Source: Microbacterium sp. (GTDB taxonomy: Bacteria; Actinomycetota; Actinomycetes; Actinomycetales; Microbacteriaceae). Taken from it: a stretch of DNA of 64,000 bases. The notes beneath the pieces are model-generated. The model ran no database searches. It was not told where the DNA came from and saw only the letters and a program-made list of their open reading frames with translations. Numbering within the stretch: position 1 is the stretch's first letter; every line of letters starts with the position of its first letter. Below are positions 44,281 to 53,946 of the stretch, one piece after another. The position numbers and the translations under genes were made by a program. The stretch spans positions 153,731 to 217,730 of the forward strand of contig NZ_JBIITF010000004.1 in NCBI RefSeq assembly GCF_044340635.1, in the 5' to 3' direction.

Positions 44281-44394
44281 GGTATTCCTTCTTCCGGTTC
44301 TGGAGTCGGCGACAACTCTAGGCCGAACCACCGACACCCGAATGGGGGTTGCGGCGTGGGCCCACCCAGGGTTCTCATCACCGCAACACGACGA

Positions 44395-49192: not shown

Positions 49193-49211
49193 CCCGCGCT
49201 CCCGTGCTCCC

Positions 49212-49282
49212 AAAACAGGAGATCCGCCGAAAACAGGACGTTTCGGGCGCAATCGTCCTGTTGCGGGCGACTCTCCTGTTTT
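49212..49282. repeat. Nested hairpin (family D)
   Basis: AAAACAGGAG..AAAACAGGACG-loop-CGTCCTGTT..CTCCTGTTTT between convergent genes. Confidence 0.82.
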
Positions 49283-49308
49283 CGGGCGACTCGGCAACGT
49301 GAGCGAGG

Positions 49309-49533
49309 TCAGTAGTGCGGGGGCACGTCCTGGCGTAGGCGGTCGTCGTTCGGTCCGGCGGTGCTCGCGTCAGGCGCGGGAGCGGGATCGGATGCCTCGT
49401 CCCGGGGGGCCGGCTCCGGTGTCGCTCCCGGTGCGGGCGTCAGCTTGGCTCGGCGCGCGCCGGGAACTCTCACCACGTGTTGGCGCGAGCCCGCCGGCGG
49501 GTCCGGCTCGCCGGAACCGTCAGCCGAGGCCAT
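49309..49533 (-). CDS. Small hypothetical protein
   Basis: 74 aa, VVRVPGARRAKLTPAPG...GPNDDRLRQDVPPHY; start overlaps the upstream helicase-like stop. Confidence 0.55.
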   Translation of the reverse strand: MASADGSGEPDPPAGSRQHVVRVPGARRAKLTPAPGATPEPAPRDEASDPAPAPDASTAGPNDDRLRQDVPPHY

Positions 49534-52500
49534 CGATCGGCTGGGTCGACGCCTCGACGGCGGGTGCGTCGGGCTCGACCCCCAGGATCGATGCGATGCG
49601 CGCGGCGACGGCCGGGGCATCCGTGTACAGGTCGAACGAATGCACACGCACGTAGTGCCATCCGAGCCGCCGGAGCAGCTGGGGACGCAGGCGCAGTGAT
49701 TCGCGTAGGGACTCGTCGTGCGTCTCGGGGTCGCTCTCGACGACGACGGCCTTGCCCGCGTGCTGCGCGACGAGGGGCAGAAGGCCGCGATAGTGCACGT
49801 CGACCGAGACGCCCAGGCGGCGAAGCTCGGACGCCAGGCGGCGCGTGAGCGGGTCGGCCAGGTCTTCGAGTCGGGCGTCGCGCTGGCGCGCTGCCATGCC
49901 GCCGAGGATCGTCATGAGGGTGGCGGCGCCGTACTCCAGGCGTCCGTCATCGAACGCGGAGGGACGGATGGATGACACGATCACCATCGAGCGGCGCGCC
50001 CGGGTCATGCCGACCGTCAGCAGGCGCTCACCGTCGGGGGTCGACAGGTCGCCGAAGTCGCTCAGCACACGGCCGTGCTTGGTCAGCCCGTAGCCGAGCG
50101 AGAAGATCACGCGGTCACGGCTCTCGGCGACCGACTGCTCGAGCGTGAGCACCGCGAACGGCTCGGCGGTGTCGCGCAGGGCGAACTCCGAAACATCCGA
50201 TCGGCTTGCGAAAGCCGCGTTGACGGCCGCACGCACGCGCTCCGCGTGCCGTGCGCTGGCGGTCACGACCATGAGCGACTCGTCCGGCCGGTTGAGCGCG
50301 TGCTCGAGCACGAGCGTCACGACCCGCGTCACCTCGGTGTCGGGGCTCTCGACGGCGCCGCTGATCGGGTCGGGCGCGCCGAAGCCGCCCTCGACGTAGT
50401 CCACGGTCAGGCTGCCGCGGCCGAGGTACGAACCGGCCCACGGCCACGACACGATCTCGCCACCGTAGAAGGCGTCGTTGACGAGCTCGGCGAGGTCTTC
50501 GCCACCGGCGCGGTAGCTGCGCGTGAGCGTATAGACGGGCAGCAGGTCCCCGAGCTTCTCGAACACCGAGACGTCGTCGAATGTGACGTCGGCTTCGGGC
50601 TGCGGAGCCGAGCCGGCCGCGAGCGTGAACGGCGAGGGACGCTGCGTCACGGGGTCGCCGAGCACGACGACCTGACGGGCACGGCGGATCGCGGGTGCGG
50701 CCTCGGCGAGGCAGATGGCCCCGGCGTCCGCGATGATCACGGTGTCGAACATGACCGAATCGGGGATCTTCGGCACCTCGTAGGGCGACGCCAGCCACAC
50801 AGGCGCGAGCGCGCGACCGAGCGTCGGGGCGCCGAGAGAGAGCGTTGCGGGCGTCGCGGTTCCGCGGGTCAGAAGCGCCTTGAGGTTCTCGGCCTCGCCC
50901 GGCTCATCGACGATGCCGATCTTCCATTCGCGGGCGAGCTGCCACGACAGGATCGATCCGGATGCCGCGGCGTGCGCCTCGTCGACCAGTCGGAAATCAC
51001 GTTCCAGGCGGTCGACGACGCTCGTGTTCGCGCCGAGCAGAGACTTGTCGGAGCGGAGCATGTGCTCGAGCGCGGACTGCCACCACGCGTATTCGAGCTC
51101 GGCCGCGACACGGTCGGCGGGAACGTGTCGCACCGACAGCTCGGCGAGCAGGCCGCCGAGTCCGAGACGGGCGAGCTCGGCGCGGAGGGCCGTTCGCTCG
51201 ATCAGGTTGTCGAGGACATCGGATTCTGCGGCCAGGCCGGCGAGCGTGCGCACCAGGGTGTTGATCGACAGCGAGGCGAGGCGCTTGTCGCGGTCGCGCC
51301 CGAGCGGGGCGTCGAGCTCCGCCAGCTCGGCCGTGACCCGCTGCCAAGCGACGTGCACATCGGCCAGGCCGAGGGGAACCTCGGGGGCCACACCGATGTC
51401 GACGAACTGCTGCCACTGCGTGCGCTGACGCTGGATGCGCACGAGAGCCTCGTGCATATCGGCGACGTGGACGCCCGGGCGCACGTACTCGCGCGCCAGG
51501 CGACGCAGGCGGCGCCGCTCCCCCGCCTTCATGCCCGCGGAGTCCCGACGCGAACCGAGTGCACGGATGAGGTCGGCGAGCGGACGTTCGAAGACGGTGG
51601 GGCTGAAGCGATCGAGCGAATCGCGGATGTCGATCAGCAGGCGCAGGTATTCGCCGAGTTCGTCGATCGAGGCGAAAGGACGCATGCGCGTCTGCGCGAT
51701 CAGCTCGAAGCCGCGCTCGAGCAGCCGGGGAACCTCGGTCGTGTGCAGCCTCTGCGCGAGGGCGTGCGCCGACTGCGCGGCATCCGTGCTCGCGAAGTTG
51801 ACGCCGTACCAGGGGGAATCGCCGGGACCGAAGCGGAATTCACCGAGCGTGGCGGCGAGCACGAGCATCCGCGCCGCTTCCGTGCGGTCGTTCGCCAGCT
51901 TCGTCAGCGTCGCGAAGTCGAACCGCGTGTCGACGGGGGCGATGCCGTCGGCTGCGGGCAGCGCGGCGAGAGCATGGAGCGTCTGCAAGGGACTGACGCC
52001 GAGACCCGGGACGGGCGTCGTCAGCGCCTTGCGGTACGACGTCAGCAGGGCGCGCAAACGCACCAGCGCGTCGTCGACGTCGCCGAGCTGGGGCGCGCTG
52101 GCCTTCTCGTTGCGGGCGATCGCGCGCACCAGGTCGCGGGCGGTGTTGGTCGGCGAGCAGGCGAGACCGGGCAGACCGACCTGGCCGAGTCGATGCCGCA
52201 CGCCCTCGATCGTCGAGCGGCGCGCGCTGACGACCAGCACGCGACGGTGCTCGTGGACGAGGGCGCCGATGGCGTTGATGACGGTCTGCGTTCCGCCCGT
52301 CCCGGGCAGCGTCGCTACGGCGATCGAGCGTCCCGCGGTGATCTGGGCGAGCACGCGCTCCTGCTCGGAGTCGGCGTCGAGCAGGAGCGTGTCGGCGGCG
52401 GGCGGACGGTCATCCGGCCCGACGGTCTGCACTTCGCCCGGCTGCGCGGCGAGCGTCTGCCGATCTGCCTGGTGCCCCGCGAGGGCGTTCAGCACGAGCC

Positions 52501-53260
52501 CGCCGGCTCGGGAGGAGTCGCGGGCCATGCCGCGCGCGACATCGGCGAACGTCGAGACGATCAGACGCGGATGCACAGTGAACGTGTCGATGTGGGAGGT
52601 GACGGACCGGAGCCTGTCGATGACGCGCTGGGGCTTGAAGACGCCGCCCTCGTGGGCGAGCGCGGCGAGCGCCGGACCGTCGAGGGCGATCCCGAAGTGC
52701 TCGCGTGAGACCGAGTCGAGCTCCGGATTGATGTGGAAGCCGCCGTGCAGCTTCAGTTCGAAATCGGCACCGTGACGACGGATGGCGAGGGGGCGGAGCA
52801 GAACGGGCGCACTGTAAGAAACGCCGCCGATGCGCCAACCGGCGAGCCCGACGGCGAGGTGGACGGCCTCGATCGAGCGGACCGTGCGCAACTCGACGTT
52901 CTTCGCCGTGATGGCCTCGGCGGCGAGGCGAGCCGTGCGCAGGGCGACCTCATCGCGGAAGAGCCCGGACAACAACGTCGACTGCCCCGTGATGAACTGC
53001 GGCAGGCTGCCGGGGTGCGCGTTGGTGATGTCGATTCCCGCGTCCGCGACATCGACGAATTGCAGCAACGGAGAGCGTCCACCGAGCTCGGATGCCTCGG
53101 CGCGCAACCGTGATCGGAGCACGTCCGCGACATGCGCGACCTGCACGTCGGGCTCGGCAACACTCAGACCATCGGGCGCGACGCTGCGGTTATCGGGCGC
53201 GCCAAGCGACGGGGACCCGTCTTCGCCCAGGTCCACGGCGTTGCCGTCTGCTCGCCACAC
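49520..53260 (-). CDS. DUF4011-type SF1 (DNA2/NAM7) helicase-like protein with C-terminal Vsr-like domain, catalytically degenerate
   Basis: DADSEQ Q-motif; TLPGTGGT (Walker A), IIADAGA (Walker B), LTRSYRA, TRARR; C-terminal RLRPQLLRRLGWHYVRV. Confidence 0.78.
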   Translation of the reverse strand: MWRADGNAVDLGEDGSPSLGAPDNRSVAPDGLSVAEPDVQVAHVADVLRSRLRAEASELGGRSPLLQFVDVADAGIDITNAHPGSLPQFITGQSTLLSGLFRDEVALRTARLAAEAITAKNVELRTVRSIEAVHLAVGLAGWRIGGVSYSAPVLLRPLAIRRHGADFELKLHGGFHINPELDSVSREHFGIALDGPALAALAHEGGVFKPQRVIDRLRSVTSHIDTFTVHPRLIVSTFADVARGMARDSSRAGGLVLNALAGHQADRQTLAAQPGEVQTVGPDDRPPAADTLLLDADSEQERVLAQITAGRSIAVATLPGTGGTQTVINAIGALVHEHRRVLVVSARRSTIEGVRHRLGQVGLPGLACSPTNTARDLVRAIARNEKASAPQLGDVDDALVRLRALLTSYRKALTTPVPGLGVSPLQTLHALAALPAADGIAPVDTRFDFATLTKLANDRTEAARMLVLAATLGEFRFGPGDSPWYGVNFASTDAAQSAHALAQRLHTTEVPRLLERGFELIAQTRMRPFASIDELGEYLRLLIDIRDSLDRFSPTVFERPLADLIRALGSRRDSAGMKAGERRRLRRLAREYVRPGVHVADMHEALVRIQRQRTQWQQFVDIGVAPEVPLGLADVHVAWQRVTAELAELDAPLGRDRDKRLASLSINTLVRTLAGLAAESDVLDNLIERTALRAELARLGLGGLLAELSVRHVPADRVAAELEYAWWQSALEHMLRSDKSLLGANTSVVDRLERDFRLVDEAHAAASGSILSWQLAREWKIGIVDEPGEAENLKALLTRGTATPATLSLGAPTLGRALAPVWLASPYEVPKIPDSVMFDTVIIADAGAICLAEAAPAIRRARQVVVLGDPVTQRPSPFTLAAGSAPQPEADVTFDDVSVFEKLGDLLPVYTLTRSYRAGGEDLAELVNDAFYGGEIVSWPWAGSYLGRGSLTVDYVEGGFGAPDPISGAVESPDTEVTRVVTLVLEHALNRPDESLMVVTASARHAERVRAAVNAAFASRSDVSEFALRDTAEPFAVLTLEQSVAESRDRVIFSLGYGLTKHGRVLSDFGDLSTPDGERLLTVGMTRARRSMVIVSSIRPSAFDDGRLEYGAATLMTILGGMAARQRDARLEDLADPLTRRLASELRRLGVSVDVHYRGLLPLVAQHAGKAVVVESDPETHDESLRESLRLRPQLLRRLGWHYVRVHSFDLYTDAPAVAARIASILGVEPDAPAVEASTQPIDGLG

Positions 53261-53430
53261 ACGGTCACCCTACGTGCGGACGGCGCGTCGACCGGTCAAG
53301 CGCGGCGGGTTTCGCGGGATTGCCGGGTTGGACAGGCCATCTCTCCTCCCCCGCCGGGGTCTTCAGGCATCCGTCCCCCGAACGCCCCACGTTCCCTCAG
53401 ATGTCGCGAGTCAGCGGCAGGATGGGCGTC

Positions 53431-53946
53431 ATGCCGCTCCGCTACACGACAACACCCACGCCGATCGGGATCGCGCTCGCCGTCGAGTCCGATGACGGGC
53501 TGGTTGCGCTCCGTTTCGCCGAGGCGTCTGCCGAGAGCCTGCTGGATCAGATCATGGCGGCGCGGCGGGAGCCCGCTGTGCGCGACGACGAGGCGCTCGA
53601 TCCCGTGGCGACGCAACTGGAGCAGTACTTCACGGGCGAGCGCCGGTCGTTCGACATCCCGCTGGATCTCGCGGGCCTGACCCCCTTCACCCGCGCCGCG
53701 CTCGGGGCGATCCGTGAGATCCCGTACGGCGAGACCGCGGGCTACGGGGAGGTCGCGATCACCGCCGGCATCCCGCGCGCAGCACGTGCGGTCGGCTCCG
53801 TGTGCGCCAACACGCCCATCTCGGTCGTGATCCCGGTGCACCGCGTCGTCCGGTCGGACGGATCGCTCGGCGAGTACGGCGGACGACCCGAGGTGAAGCG
53901 CGCGCTGCTCGCCCTCGAGTCGGGCATCGAGGGGGTCCTGCCGTGA
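53431..53946 (+). CDS. O6-alkylguanine alkyltransferase homologue lacking the acceptor Cys (ATL-like)
   Basis: QLEQYFTGERRSFDIPLD, IPYGET..YG, AARAVG, IPVHRV (canonical PCHRV). Confidence 0.85.
   Translation: MPLRYTTTPTPIGIALAVESDDGLVALRFAEASAESLLDQIMAARREPAVRDDEALDPVATQLEQYFTGERRSFDIPLDLAGLTPFTRAALGAIREIPYGETAGYGEVAITAGIPRAARAVGSVCANTPISVVIPVHRVVRSDGSLGEYGGRPEVKRALLALESGIEGVLP

What the first reader, a model, noticed from the sequence alone, without database searches (positions are those of the whole stretch)
49520..53260. Large pseudo-helicase: DUF4011-helicase-Vsr architecture with the catalytic motifs degenerated
Seen: Walker A reads TLPGTGGT (Lys->Gly versus GPPGTGKS/T). Walker B reads IIADAGA (versus DEASQ). 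Motif V reads LEQSVAESRD (no QGxE) and motif VI reads LLTVGMTRAR (no Asn). The Vsr-like tail VVESDPETH lacks the usual ECDG..YH. The 1246-aa ORF is uninterrupted and has a TAGGGT-N6-GTG start. Established: DUF4011-helicase-Vsr proteins include anti-phage factors. Inference: a domesticated, ATPase-dead nucleic-acid-binding scaffold or sensor retained beside mscL.
Basis: partly seen in the sequence, partly recalled or inferred. Interest (0 to 1): 0.7.

Follow-up and report, generated by a model that had tools for sequence, protein, structure and literature searches.

The report
Conserved ATPase-dead helicase-like protein, tiny partner
This Microbacterium gene encodes a large protein with the shape of a helicase plus a nuclease whose catalytic residues are gone, yet it is kept under strong selection in almost every member of its bacterial family, next to a tiny unstudied partner protein, so it probably works by binding and not by burning ATP.

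Summary
ORF 49520-53260 (-) encodes a 1246-aa protein. An AlphaFold model (pLDDT 86.6) matches Upf1-like SF1B helicases such as Senataxin, Aquarius, Upf1, IGHMBP2 and Dna2.

Walker A reads TLPGTGGTQT (Lys->Gly). Walker B reads IIADAGA. Motifs III, V and VI are altered. The Vsr-like C-terminal domain has lost its first catalytic Asp.

The gene is not decaying:
- dN/dS is 0.035 against a 97%-identical orthologue.
- GTGGT is invariant in 21 Microbacterium orthologues.
- The gene is present in 200 of 201 Microbacteriaceae genomes (95 of 95 genera), including 0.9-1.5 Mb genomes.

Positional orthologues beside the galU/FmdB/mscL block occur in other actinomycete families. Some keep GKS/DEASQ. Others carry R, Q, A, Y or V at the lysine position. 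The tree needs at least three state changes, and a single dead clade is rejected (AU p=0.0001).

New: a 74-aa ORF (49309-49533) overlaps the stop codon. Its C-terminal PPH[WY] motif is fused to the helicase-like protein in several lineages. The motif is single-copy in 234 of 301 genomes of the class.

I read it as a non-catalytic binding scaffold that acts with this small protein. The biochemical role is untested. No paper on it was found.

The parts
49520..53260 (-). Pseudo-helicase/pseudo-nuclease gene, 1246 aa, GTG start
   Evidence: dN/dS is 0.035 against the 97%-identical orthologue. Present in 200 of 201 Microbacteriaceae genomes.
53267..53272 (-). TAGGGT, a probable -10 hexamer (TAnnnT) 6 nt before the GTG start; implies a leaderless transcript
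   Evidence: TAnnnT-N6/7-GTGTGGCG is conserved in 10 orthologous loci, while the inner three bases vary.
52448..53122 (-). N-terminal DUF4011-like domain (residues 47-271), alpha/beta
   Evidence: Model secondary structure. It aligns with homologues recorded as PF13195. Pfam does not detect the domain in this protein itself.
52352..52387 (-). Q-motif-like LLLDADSEQERV; D297 and Q300 are invariant across the whole family
52283..52312 (-). Degenerate Walker A, TLPGTGGTQT (Lys->Gly)
   Evidence: Invariant in 21 Microbacterium orthologues.
50807..52105 (-). All-helical insertion of about 430 aa within RecA1 (residues 386-818)
   Evidence: Model secondary structure. Conserved blocks in alignment A1.
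50717..50749 (-). Degenerate Walker B, FDTVIIADAGA (DE -> AD, SQ -> GA)
50633..50665 (-). Degenerate motif III, GDPVTQRP (intact relatives: GDERQLPP)
50111..50143 (-). Degenerate motif V, LEQSVAESRD (intact: LERVQGDERD); R1048 and D1049 are invariant
49991..50023 (-). Motif VI, LLTVGMTRARR (intact: RLNVAITRAR); Asn lost, TRAR kept
49583..49858 (-). C-terminal Vsr/MTES_1575-type REase-like domain (residues 1135-1226). The first catalytic Asp is replaced (YRGLLPLVA, 49766-49792). E-x-D is kept but reads ESDP (49718-49747).
   Evidence: Pfam PF18741, E 6.6e-5, below cut-off. Alignment with intact relatives. alpha-beta-beta-beta-alpha-beta in the model. 0 nonsynonymous against 34 synonymous differences.
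49309..49533 (-). Small ORF of 74 aa whose ATG overlaps the target stop codon by 14 nt. Predicted product is Pro/Ala-rich, with RVPGARRAKLTPAPG and a C-terminal GPNDDRLRQDVPPHY.
   Evidence: dN/dS 0.10. Single copy in the genome. The motif is fused to the helicase-like ORF in other lineages.
49197..49305 (.). Long nested hairpin (-57 kcal/mol) with an A-tract and a T-tract, between convergent mscL and the small ORF; a likely bidirectional terminator

Best explanation
The gene encodes a vertically inherited member of an actinobacterial family with the architecture DUF4011, Upf1-like SF1B helicase, Vsr-type nuclease. It is dead as an ATPase and very probably dead as a nuclease. It keeps the whole fold but lacks the Walker A lysine, the Walker B acidic pair, the motif III/V signatures and the first nuclease aspartate. 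After inactivation the lineage evolved quickly and then came under strong purifying selection. The gene is now a core gene of Microbacteriaceae. It appears to be transcribed as a leaderless two-gene operon and is translationally coupled to a 74-aa disordered protein. That protein's C-terminal PPH[WY] motif is, in other lineages, the C-terminal tail of the helicase-like protein itself. Inferred mechanism: the large protein acts without ATP as a binding platform. It may be a static nucleic-acid clamp of the kind the RecA1/RecA2 cleft of SF1B proteins forms. The small protein or tail is a short linear motif that connects this platform to another, widely conserved actinobacterial component. Shown here: loss of the motifs, retention of the fold, selection, distribution, synteny, gene coupling and fusion. 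Inferred only: nucleic-acid binding, the identity of the partner and the cellular process.
For: Motifs. Fold: AF2 pLDDT 86.6; Foldseek top hits Senataxin/Sen1, Aquarius, Upf1, IGHMBP2, Dna2 and nsp13; profile against PDB hits IGHMBP2, Upf1 and Dna2. Selection: dN/dS 0.035 (343 synonymous, 42 nonsynonymous differences), with no nonsynonymous change in the P-loop region or the nuclease-like domain. Core status: 200 of 201 genomes and 95 of 95 genera of the family, including genomes of 0.9-1.5 Mb; single copy in this genome. The P-loop differs within the family (PGAQVTQA, PGCGYTQL). Among 124 full-length 50%-identity representatives only 26 keep Lys; the rest carry A, V, R, Y, Q, G, L or T. That argues against a conserved nucleotide site. 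Orthology by position beside galU/5-FTHF ligase/FmdB/mscL across families. Inactivation was repeated: the tree needs at least 3 state changes, and one dead clade is rejected (AU p=0.00013). Partner: the small ORF lies downstream in all 12 Microbacteriaceae loci examined, has dN/dS 0.10, and is fused in-frame in f2, f4, f13 and streamlined Microbacteriaceae lineages and in 9 of 120 and 26 of 124 database homologues.
Against: Binding of nucleic acid is inferred from the fold only. AF2 did not dock the fused tail onto an intact orthologue (tail pLDDT 30-50), so direct contact between the tail and the large protein is unsupported. The small protein also occurs alone, with varied neighbours, in many genomes that lack the helicase-like gene. 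Adjacency could therefore partly reflect shared position in a conserved block. Q300, G320, G322, T324 and Q325 remain invariant in Microbacterium, so some ligand binding at the old ATP site cannot be excluded for this genus.
Confidence: 0.72

Rival explanations
1. Nucleotide-binding switch. The site no longer hydrolyses ATP but still binds ATP, ADP or another phosphate ligand, and the protein works as a ligand-gated sensor.
For: The Gly-rich loop, T324, Q325 and the Q-motif Gln300 are invariant in Microbacterium, and Q300, G320 and G322 are invariant in the 71-sequence alignment. Some lineages carry only K->R, or K->A with an intact DEASQ (P0223, P0192).
Against: Other Microbacteriaceae carry PGAQVTQA or PGCGYTQ at this site. 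Tyr, Val and Leu at the Lys position are common among representatives. The Walker B acidic pair is also gone. A conserved nucleotide pocket is therefore unlikely to be the shared function.
Confidence: 0.12
2. Immune sensor or decoy. The protein keeps an anti-phage role like its relatives Hhe, ProA and PDC-S37, but acts as a non-catalytic trigger or decoy for phage proteins.
For: Partial HMM matches to antiphage_ProA (E 1.3e-79), Hhe (1.6e-39) and PADLOC PDC-S37 (1.7e-84). Intact relatives are sporadic in at least one family and lie outside the conserved block there (L036, L064).
Against: Scores are far below the curated cut-offs (268 against 1500; 135 against 2000). The gene is single-copy, syntenic and vertically inherited, is present in 95 of 95 genera and is kept in 0.9-Mb genomes. 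That is the pattern of a housekeeping gene and not of a defence island. No other defence genes were seen beside it.
Confidence: 0.12
3. Still an enzyme. Catalysis is rescued by non-canonical residues or by a partner that supplies them in trans.
For: Motif VI TRARR, R1048/D1049, and E1175/D1177 of the nuclease motif are invariant.
Against: Lys, both Walker B acids, motif III and the QG of motif V are all replaced, and by different residues in different lineages. The first nuclease Asp is Pro. No paralogous ATPase is encoded beside the gene.
Confidence: 0.03
4. A decaying gene that happens to be still open.
For: None beyond the motif losses.
Against: dN/dS is 0.035. The ORF is uninterrupted in nearly all of the 200 genomes. 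Mean column identity across the genus is 80%.
Confidence: 0.01

Closest known systems
ATPase-intact actinobacterial orthologues of the same family (e.g. P0209 Angustibacter sp. Root456, P0233 Oryzobacter sp. R7, loci L016-L018)
   Same: Same length and domain order, about 33-35% identity over the full length. Some sit at the same site beside FmdB/mscL. Some carry the PPHW tail fused.
   Different: They keep PPGTGKSQT, FDEASQ, GDERQLPPT, VQGDERD and NVAITRAR, and the nuclease I-D-L...E-x-D-G motifs. Their function is also unstudied.
Hhe (DUF4011 helicase + Vsr endonuclease anti-phage protein), ProA (NCBIfam NF058533) and PADLOC candidate PDC-S37
   Same: Same general architecture. Significant partial HMM matches over the second half of the protein.
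   Different: Scores are 7-15 times below the family cut-offs. Those proteins are 1550-1900 aa, are expected to be catalytically intact (from my own knowledge) and are typically accessory. This one is catalytically dead, core and syntenic.
Upf1-like SF1B helicases (Senataxin/Sen1, Upf1, IGHMBP2, Aquarius, Dna2)
   Same: RecA1/RecA2 core with insertions in RecA1; best structural and sequence matches among solved structures.
   Different: 9-19% identity. Those are active ATPases. The N-terminal DUF4011 domain, the 430-aa helical insert and the Vsr-like tail are not shared.
RecC of RecBCD and AddB of AddAB (from my own knowledge, not tested here)
   Same: Bacterial precedents for a helicase fold, and in RecC also a nuclease fold, that lost catalysis and serves as a DNA-binding or scanning subunit. 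AddAB appears among the weaker Foldseek hits (4cej_A).
   Different: They belong to SF1A and work inside a complex with active motor subunits encoded alongside. No active partner is encoded here.
Described pseudohelicases: Deinococcus radiodurans PriA (PMC4504706) and yeast Utp25 (PMC9539457)
   Same: A conserved helicase fold retained without the ATPase motifs and used for binding or assembly (titles and abstracts).
   Different: Different superfamily (SF2), different processes, no nuclease-like domain and no small partner.

Membership tests
SF1B Upf1-like helicase | Two RecA-like domains with the Upf1-type topology | tested here: met
   AF2 model pLDDT 86.6. Foldseek E 1e-13 to 1e-8 to Senataxin, Aquarius, Sen1, Upf1, IGHMBP2 and Dna2. 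Profile hits to the same proteins.
SF1B Upf1-like helicase | Walker A GxxGxGK[ST] | tested here: not met
   TLPGTGGTQT, Lys->Gly, invariant in the genus.
SF1B Upf1-like helicase | Walker B D-E-A-x-Q | tested here: not met
   IIADAGA aligned to FDEASQ of intact relatives.
SF1B Upf1-like helicase | Motifs III (GDxxQLPP), V (QGxExD) and VI (NVAxTRAR) | tested here: not met
   GDPVTQRP, SVAESRD and TVGMTRAR. Only GD, RD and TRAR are kept.
SF1B Upf1-like helicase | ATP hydrolysis and 5'-3' translocation | not testable with these tools
   Needs purified protein.
Hhe anti-phage protein (NCBIfam NF042953) | Whole-protein score at or above the curated cut-off (2000 bits) | tested here: not met
   135.2 bits, matching residues 663-1099 only.
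ProA anti-phage protein (NCBIfam NF058533) | Whole-protein score at or above the curated cut-off (1500 bits) | tested here: not met
   268.2 bits, residues 613-1224.
PADLOC PDC-S37 | Full-length match to the candidate-system model, in a defence context | tested here: inconclusive
   E 1.7e-84 but covering only 632-1225 of the protein and 725-1337 of 1550 model positions. The context is a housekeeping block.
DUF4011 (PF13195) | Pfam match at the N-terminus | tested here: inconclusive
   No hit for this protein at E<=1. The aligned N-terminal domain of homologues is recorded as PF13195.
MTES_1575 / Vsr-type REase (PF18741) | Pfam gathering score (38.2 bits) | tested here: not met
   23.4 bits, E 6.6e-5, residues 1161-1224. 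Many orthologues are recorded with PF18741.
MTES_1575 / Vsr-type REase (PF18741) | Catalytic Asp on the first core strand, plus E-x-D-G and Y-H | tested here: not met
   I-D-L becomes L-P-L. E1175 and D1177 are kept, Gly becomes Pro, and Y-H is deleted.
Pseudoenzyme (operational definition) | Enzyme fold kept, catalytic residues lost, purifying selection | tested here: met

The most novel reading that the evidence does not exclude
The dead helicase-like protein and the near-universal small PPH[WY] protein form an unrecognised housekeeping module of Actinomycetes. The small protein or tail would be a docking peptide: acidic, ending in Pro-Pro-His-aromatic, and loosely like the acidic Pro-Phe tip of SSB. 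It would tether an ATP-independent nucleic-acid clamp to core replication, repair or transcription machinery. The module would be important enough to be kept in 0.9-Mb genomes, and ATPase loss happened several times because the motor became dispensable for this role.
Probability: 0.2. Interest if true: 0.85.

Novelty: new variant of a known kind. Interest (0 to 1): 0.68.

Why it matters
Pseudo-helicases are known, but bacterial examples such as RecC, AddB and Deinococcus PriA are few. Here a 1,240-aa protein that has lost its helicase ATPase motifs and a key nuclease residue is a core gene of a whole bacterial family, including genome-streamlined members. The same family lost its ATPase independently at least twice, and probably three times. 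This gives a natural experiment on what a helicase scaffold does without its motor.

The analysis also exposes a small, mostly unannotated protein found once per genome in about 78% of sampled Actinomycetes, a class that includes model and industrial organisms. That protein has no family assignment and no paper that I could find. The fusion and operon link gives both proteins a first testable functional partner.

Tried and rejected
1. A family-wide locus scan with alignment A2 (search for related loci) failed because no stretch was conserved enough. I used the genome search and the fetch from genomes instead.

2. Pfam and NCBIfam on four versions of the small protein gave no family. Its database homologues are all 'hypothetical'.

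3. AF2 on an intact orthologue with a naturally fused tail (P0218, residues 123-1322) did not dock the tail confidently (tail pLDDT 30-50). The result is uninformative and not negative.

4. Literature searches for DUF4011, PDC-S37, Hhe+Vsr, ProA/ProB and MTES_1575 found nothing on this clade. The only relevant item is the 2013 naming of the MTES_1575 Vsr-type REase in a different Microbacterium protein (PMC3710099).

5. Scans for an actinobacterial LexA box and a RecA-NDp/PafBC-type promoter found no site in the 53261-53430 promoter region. There is therefore no sign of DNA-damage control.

6. Linkage to the divergent Ogt-like/Tag genes is confined to the genus Microbacterium, so I did not use it for function.

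7. Upstream neighbours of the small ORF in genomes without the helicase-like gene are heterogeneous: MoaB-like, CBS, Rv2466c-like, LytR, RF3 and DUF2231. No alternative partner emerged.

8. The SSB-tip resemblance rests only on the eye. SSB in this genome ends ...YGDDTPF, while the small protein ends ...RQDVPPHY. I keep it as speculation.


Full report
**The object**

The window has 65-71% G+C, and the closest homologues are all from Microbacterium. ORF 49520-53260 on the minus strand is uninterrupted for 1246 codons. Its neighbours are as follows.
- Downstream and convergent: mscL, an FmdB-type zinc-ribbon gene, 5-formyl-THF cyclo-ligase and a GalU-type nucleotidyl transferase.
- Upstream and divergent: an Ogt-like gene followed by a Tag-like gene, then a sodium:solute symporter.

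**Checking the observation**

Their assignment to helicase motifs is justified by alignment with relatives that keep the canonical motifs.

| Motif | ATPase-intact relatives | This protein |
|---|---|---|
| Walker A | PPGTGKSQT | LPGTGGTQT |
| Walker B | FDEASQ | IIADAGA |
| III | GDERQLPPT | GDPVTQRPS |
| V | VQGDERD | SVAESRD |
| VI | NVAITRAR | TVGMTRAR |

Pfam alone sees only weak AAA_11/AAA_12 and MTES_1575 matches. A 1200-residue AlphaFold model built on a 71-sequence alignment is confident (pLDDT 86.6, pTM 0.76). Its best structural neighbours are Senataxin/Sen1, Aquarius, Upf1, IGHMBP2, Dna2 and nsp13. A family profile finds the same proteins by sequence. The protein is therefore a genuine SF1B Upf1-like fold. 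Its domains are:
- an N-terminal alpha/beta domain (residues 47-271);
- a helical insertion of about 430 residues in RecA1;
- a C-terminal alpha-beta-beta-beta-alpha-beta unit of the Vsr/MTES_1575 type.

Glu1175 and Asp1177 of the E-x-D-G motif are retained. The upstream catalytic Asp (I-D-L in intact relatives) is L-P-L here, the Gly is Pro, and the Y-H is deleted.

**The gene is conserved in its dead state**

- In 21 Microbacterium orthologues of 70-82% identity, TLPGTGGTQT, D845, ESRD and TRARR are invariant, and mean column identity is 80%.
- Against a 97%-identical orthologue recovered from public assemblies, there are 343 synonymous and 42 nonsynonymous differences. That gives dN/dS of 0.035. 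No nonsynonymous change falls in the P-loop segment or the nuclease-like domain.
- The gene is single-copy in this genome.
- It is present in 200 of 201 sampled Microbacteriaceae genomes and in 95 of 95 genera. The exception retains a fragment on a short contig.
- It persists in streamlined genomes of 0.9-1.5 Mb, where the P-loop reads PGAQVTQA or PGCGYTQ.
- The P-loop sequence therefore differs between genera of one family while the protein is kept. A conserved nucleotide pocket is thus unlikely to be the common function.

**The wider family**

Full-length homologues occur in several other families of the class. tblastn with the window's neighbouring genes shows that most of them lie beside the same galU/5-FTHF-ligase/FmdB/mscL block. 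They are positional orthologues. One of these families is Jiangellaceae (names).

The state of the motifs varies by lineage:
- intact in loci L016-L018 and L036 and in many database proteins, such as those from Angustibacter and Oryzobacter;
- Lys->Arg with an 'ED' Walker B in Jiangellaceae;
- Lys->Gln, Ala, Gly, Leu, Val or Thr elsewhere;
- a few intermediates that have lost only the lysine (P0223, P0192).

Among the 124 full-length representatives nearest to the query in a 1.8-billion-protein library, only 26 keep the lysine.

An IQ-TREE analysis (LG+C20) of 42 sequences needs at least three changes of state. Forcing the two large dead clades together costs 80 log-likelihood units (AU p=0.00013). 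The caveat is that I named the group after seeing the tree. Long-branch attraction would tend to join the dead clades and not separate them. Stem branches of the dead clades are long (0.3-0.7 changes per site), while branches within Microbacteriaceae are short. That pattern fits a burst of change after inactivation followed by constraint.

Gene calls on orthologous contigs list a 70-77-aa gene overlapping the stop codon. In the window this is 49309-49533 (-). Its ATG lies inside ...ATGGCCTCGGCTGA, a 14-nt overlap.
- The product has two conserved patches, RVPGARRAKLTPAPG and GPNDDRLRQDVPPHY.
- It is found downstream of the large gene in all 12 Microbacteriaceae loci examined.
- It is single-copy in the genome.
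- Its dN/dS is 0.10.
- It has no Pfam or NCBIfam family.

The C-terminal motif (W-G, acidic residues, N-D-x-R-L, then PPHW) turns up next to the large gene in other families. In several lineages it is fused in-frame to the C-terminus of the large protein, both in intact members (L016, L017, P0206, P0218, P0226, P0232) and in dead ones (L013, G106, P0222-P0234, L067-L069).

A profile of the motif finds, usually exactly once per genome, a match in 234 of 301 genomes and 111 of 140 genera of the class. That is far more than carry the large gene. In genomes without the large gene the small gene is often still near mscL/FmdB (14 of 20 loci), but its upstream neighbours vary. Database homologues are all unnamed.

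Repeated fusion and translational coupling argue for a functional link. The independent existence of the small protein argues that it also binds something universal. AF2 on a naturally fused intact orthologue left the tail at pLDDT 30-50, so a docking site on the large protein is not supported.

**Expression signals**

Across ten orthologous loci only T-A-n-n-n-T, the 6-7-nt spacing and the GTGTGGCG start are conserved. That is the pattern of an actinobacterial -10 box driving a leaderless mRNA (my interpretation from general knowledge). The generic sigma-70 scan finds nothing. No LexA box or RecA-NDp-type promoter lies in the promoter region. A strong nested hairpin with flanking A- and T-tracts lies between the small ORF and mscL.

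**Interpretation**

The data establish a conserved pseudo-helicase/pseudo-nuclease. The most economical mechanism is an ATP-independent binding scaffold that acts with the small PPH[WY] protein. Nucleic acid is the likely ligand because the fold and several contact motifs survive (Ia R-R, IV Y-R, VI T-R-A-R). This step is inference. RecC and AddB are bacterial precedents for catalytically dead helicase and nuclease folds used to bind DNA (my own knowledge). Deinococcus PriA and yeast Utp25 are described pseudohelicases.

I weighed four rivals:
- a non-hydrolysing nucleotide switch;
- a retained immune role, given partial matches to ProA, Hhe and PDC-S37 that fall far below cut-off;
- residual catalysis;
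- decay, which is refuted.

**Relation to earlier notes of this scan**

A follow-up on an orthologue in another Microbacterium genome reached the same reading. First-stage notes on three other genomes describe the same family. I treated these as leads only and re-derived each point here.

**Verdict**

I found no literature on this clade or on the small protein. I rate it a new variant of a known kind, the pseudo-helicase, with an unexpected and testable partner.

Noticed in passing
window 49309-49533 (-): Small ORF of 74 aa overlapping the stop codon of the large gene. Its C-terminal PPH[WY] motif defines a small protein found once per genome in 234 of 301 sampled genomes of the class. It has no family assignment and only 'hypothetical' annotations.
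   Followed up: yes
window 53431-53946 (+): Ogt-like protein (Pfam Methyltransf_1N + DNA_binding_1) with IPVHRVV where the alkyl-acceptor PCHRV is expected, so it is an alkyltransferase-like protein without the Cys. It is divergent from the large gene and followed by a Tag-type (Adenine_glyco) gene. This arrangement is seen only within the genus Microbacterium.
   Followed up: partly
window 49197-49305: Nested hairpin of about 100 nt (-57 kcal/mol) with A- and T-tracts between convergent mscL and the small ORF. It is a likely bidirectional terminator. I did not check whether it belongs to the family of about 90-bp hairpins noted elsewhere in this genome.
   Followed up: partly
window 44315-44336 (-): A perfect match to the RecA-NDp/PafBC-type promoter pattern TGTCGGTG-N8-TAGAGT. 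The window has 18 matches at up to 2 mismatches, against 8.8 expected. I did not examine the downstream gene.
   Followed up: no
genome contig C6, about 55.2 kb (outside the window): The SSB of this genome ends ...GEAWSAPGAYGDDTPF. There is a loose resemblance to the small protein's acidic ...DVPPHY end and to the W-G motif of its relatives. This is speculative.
   Followed up: no
L013/L026, L016, L017, L067-L069 (genome-search loci): In these genomes the PPHW tail is in the same reading frame as the helicase-like ORF. In sister genomes (L014, L018) it is a separate frame. The fusion or split has therefore happened repeatedly.
   Followed up: partly
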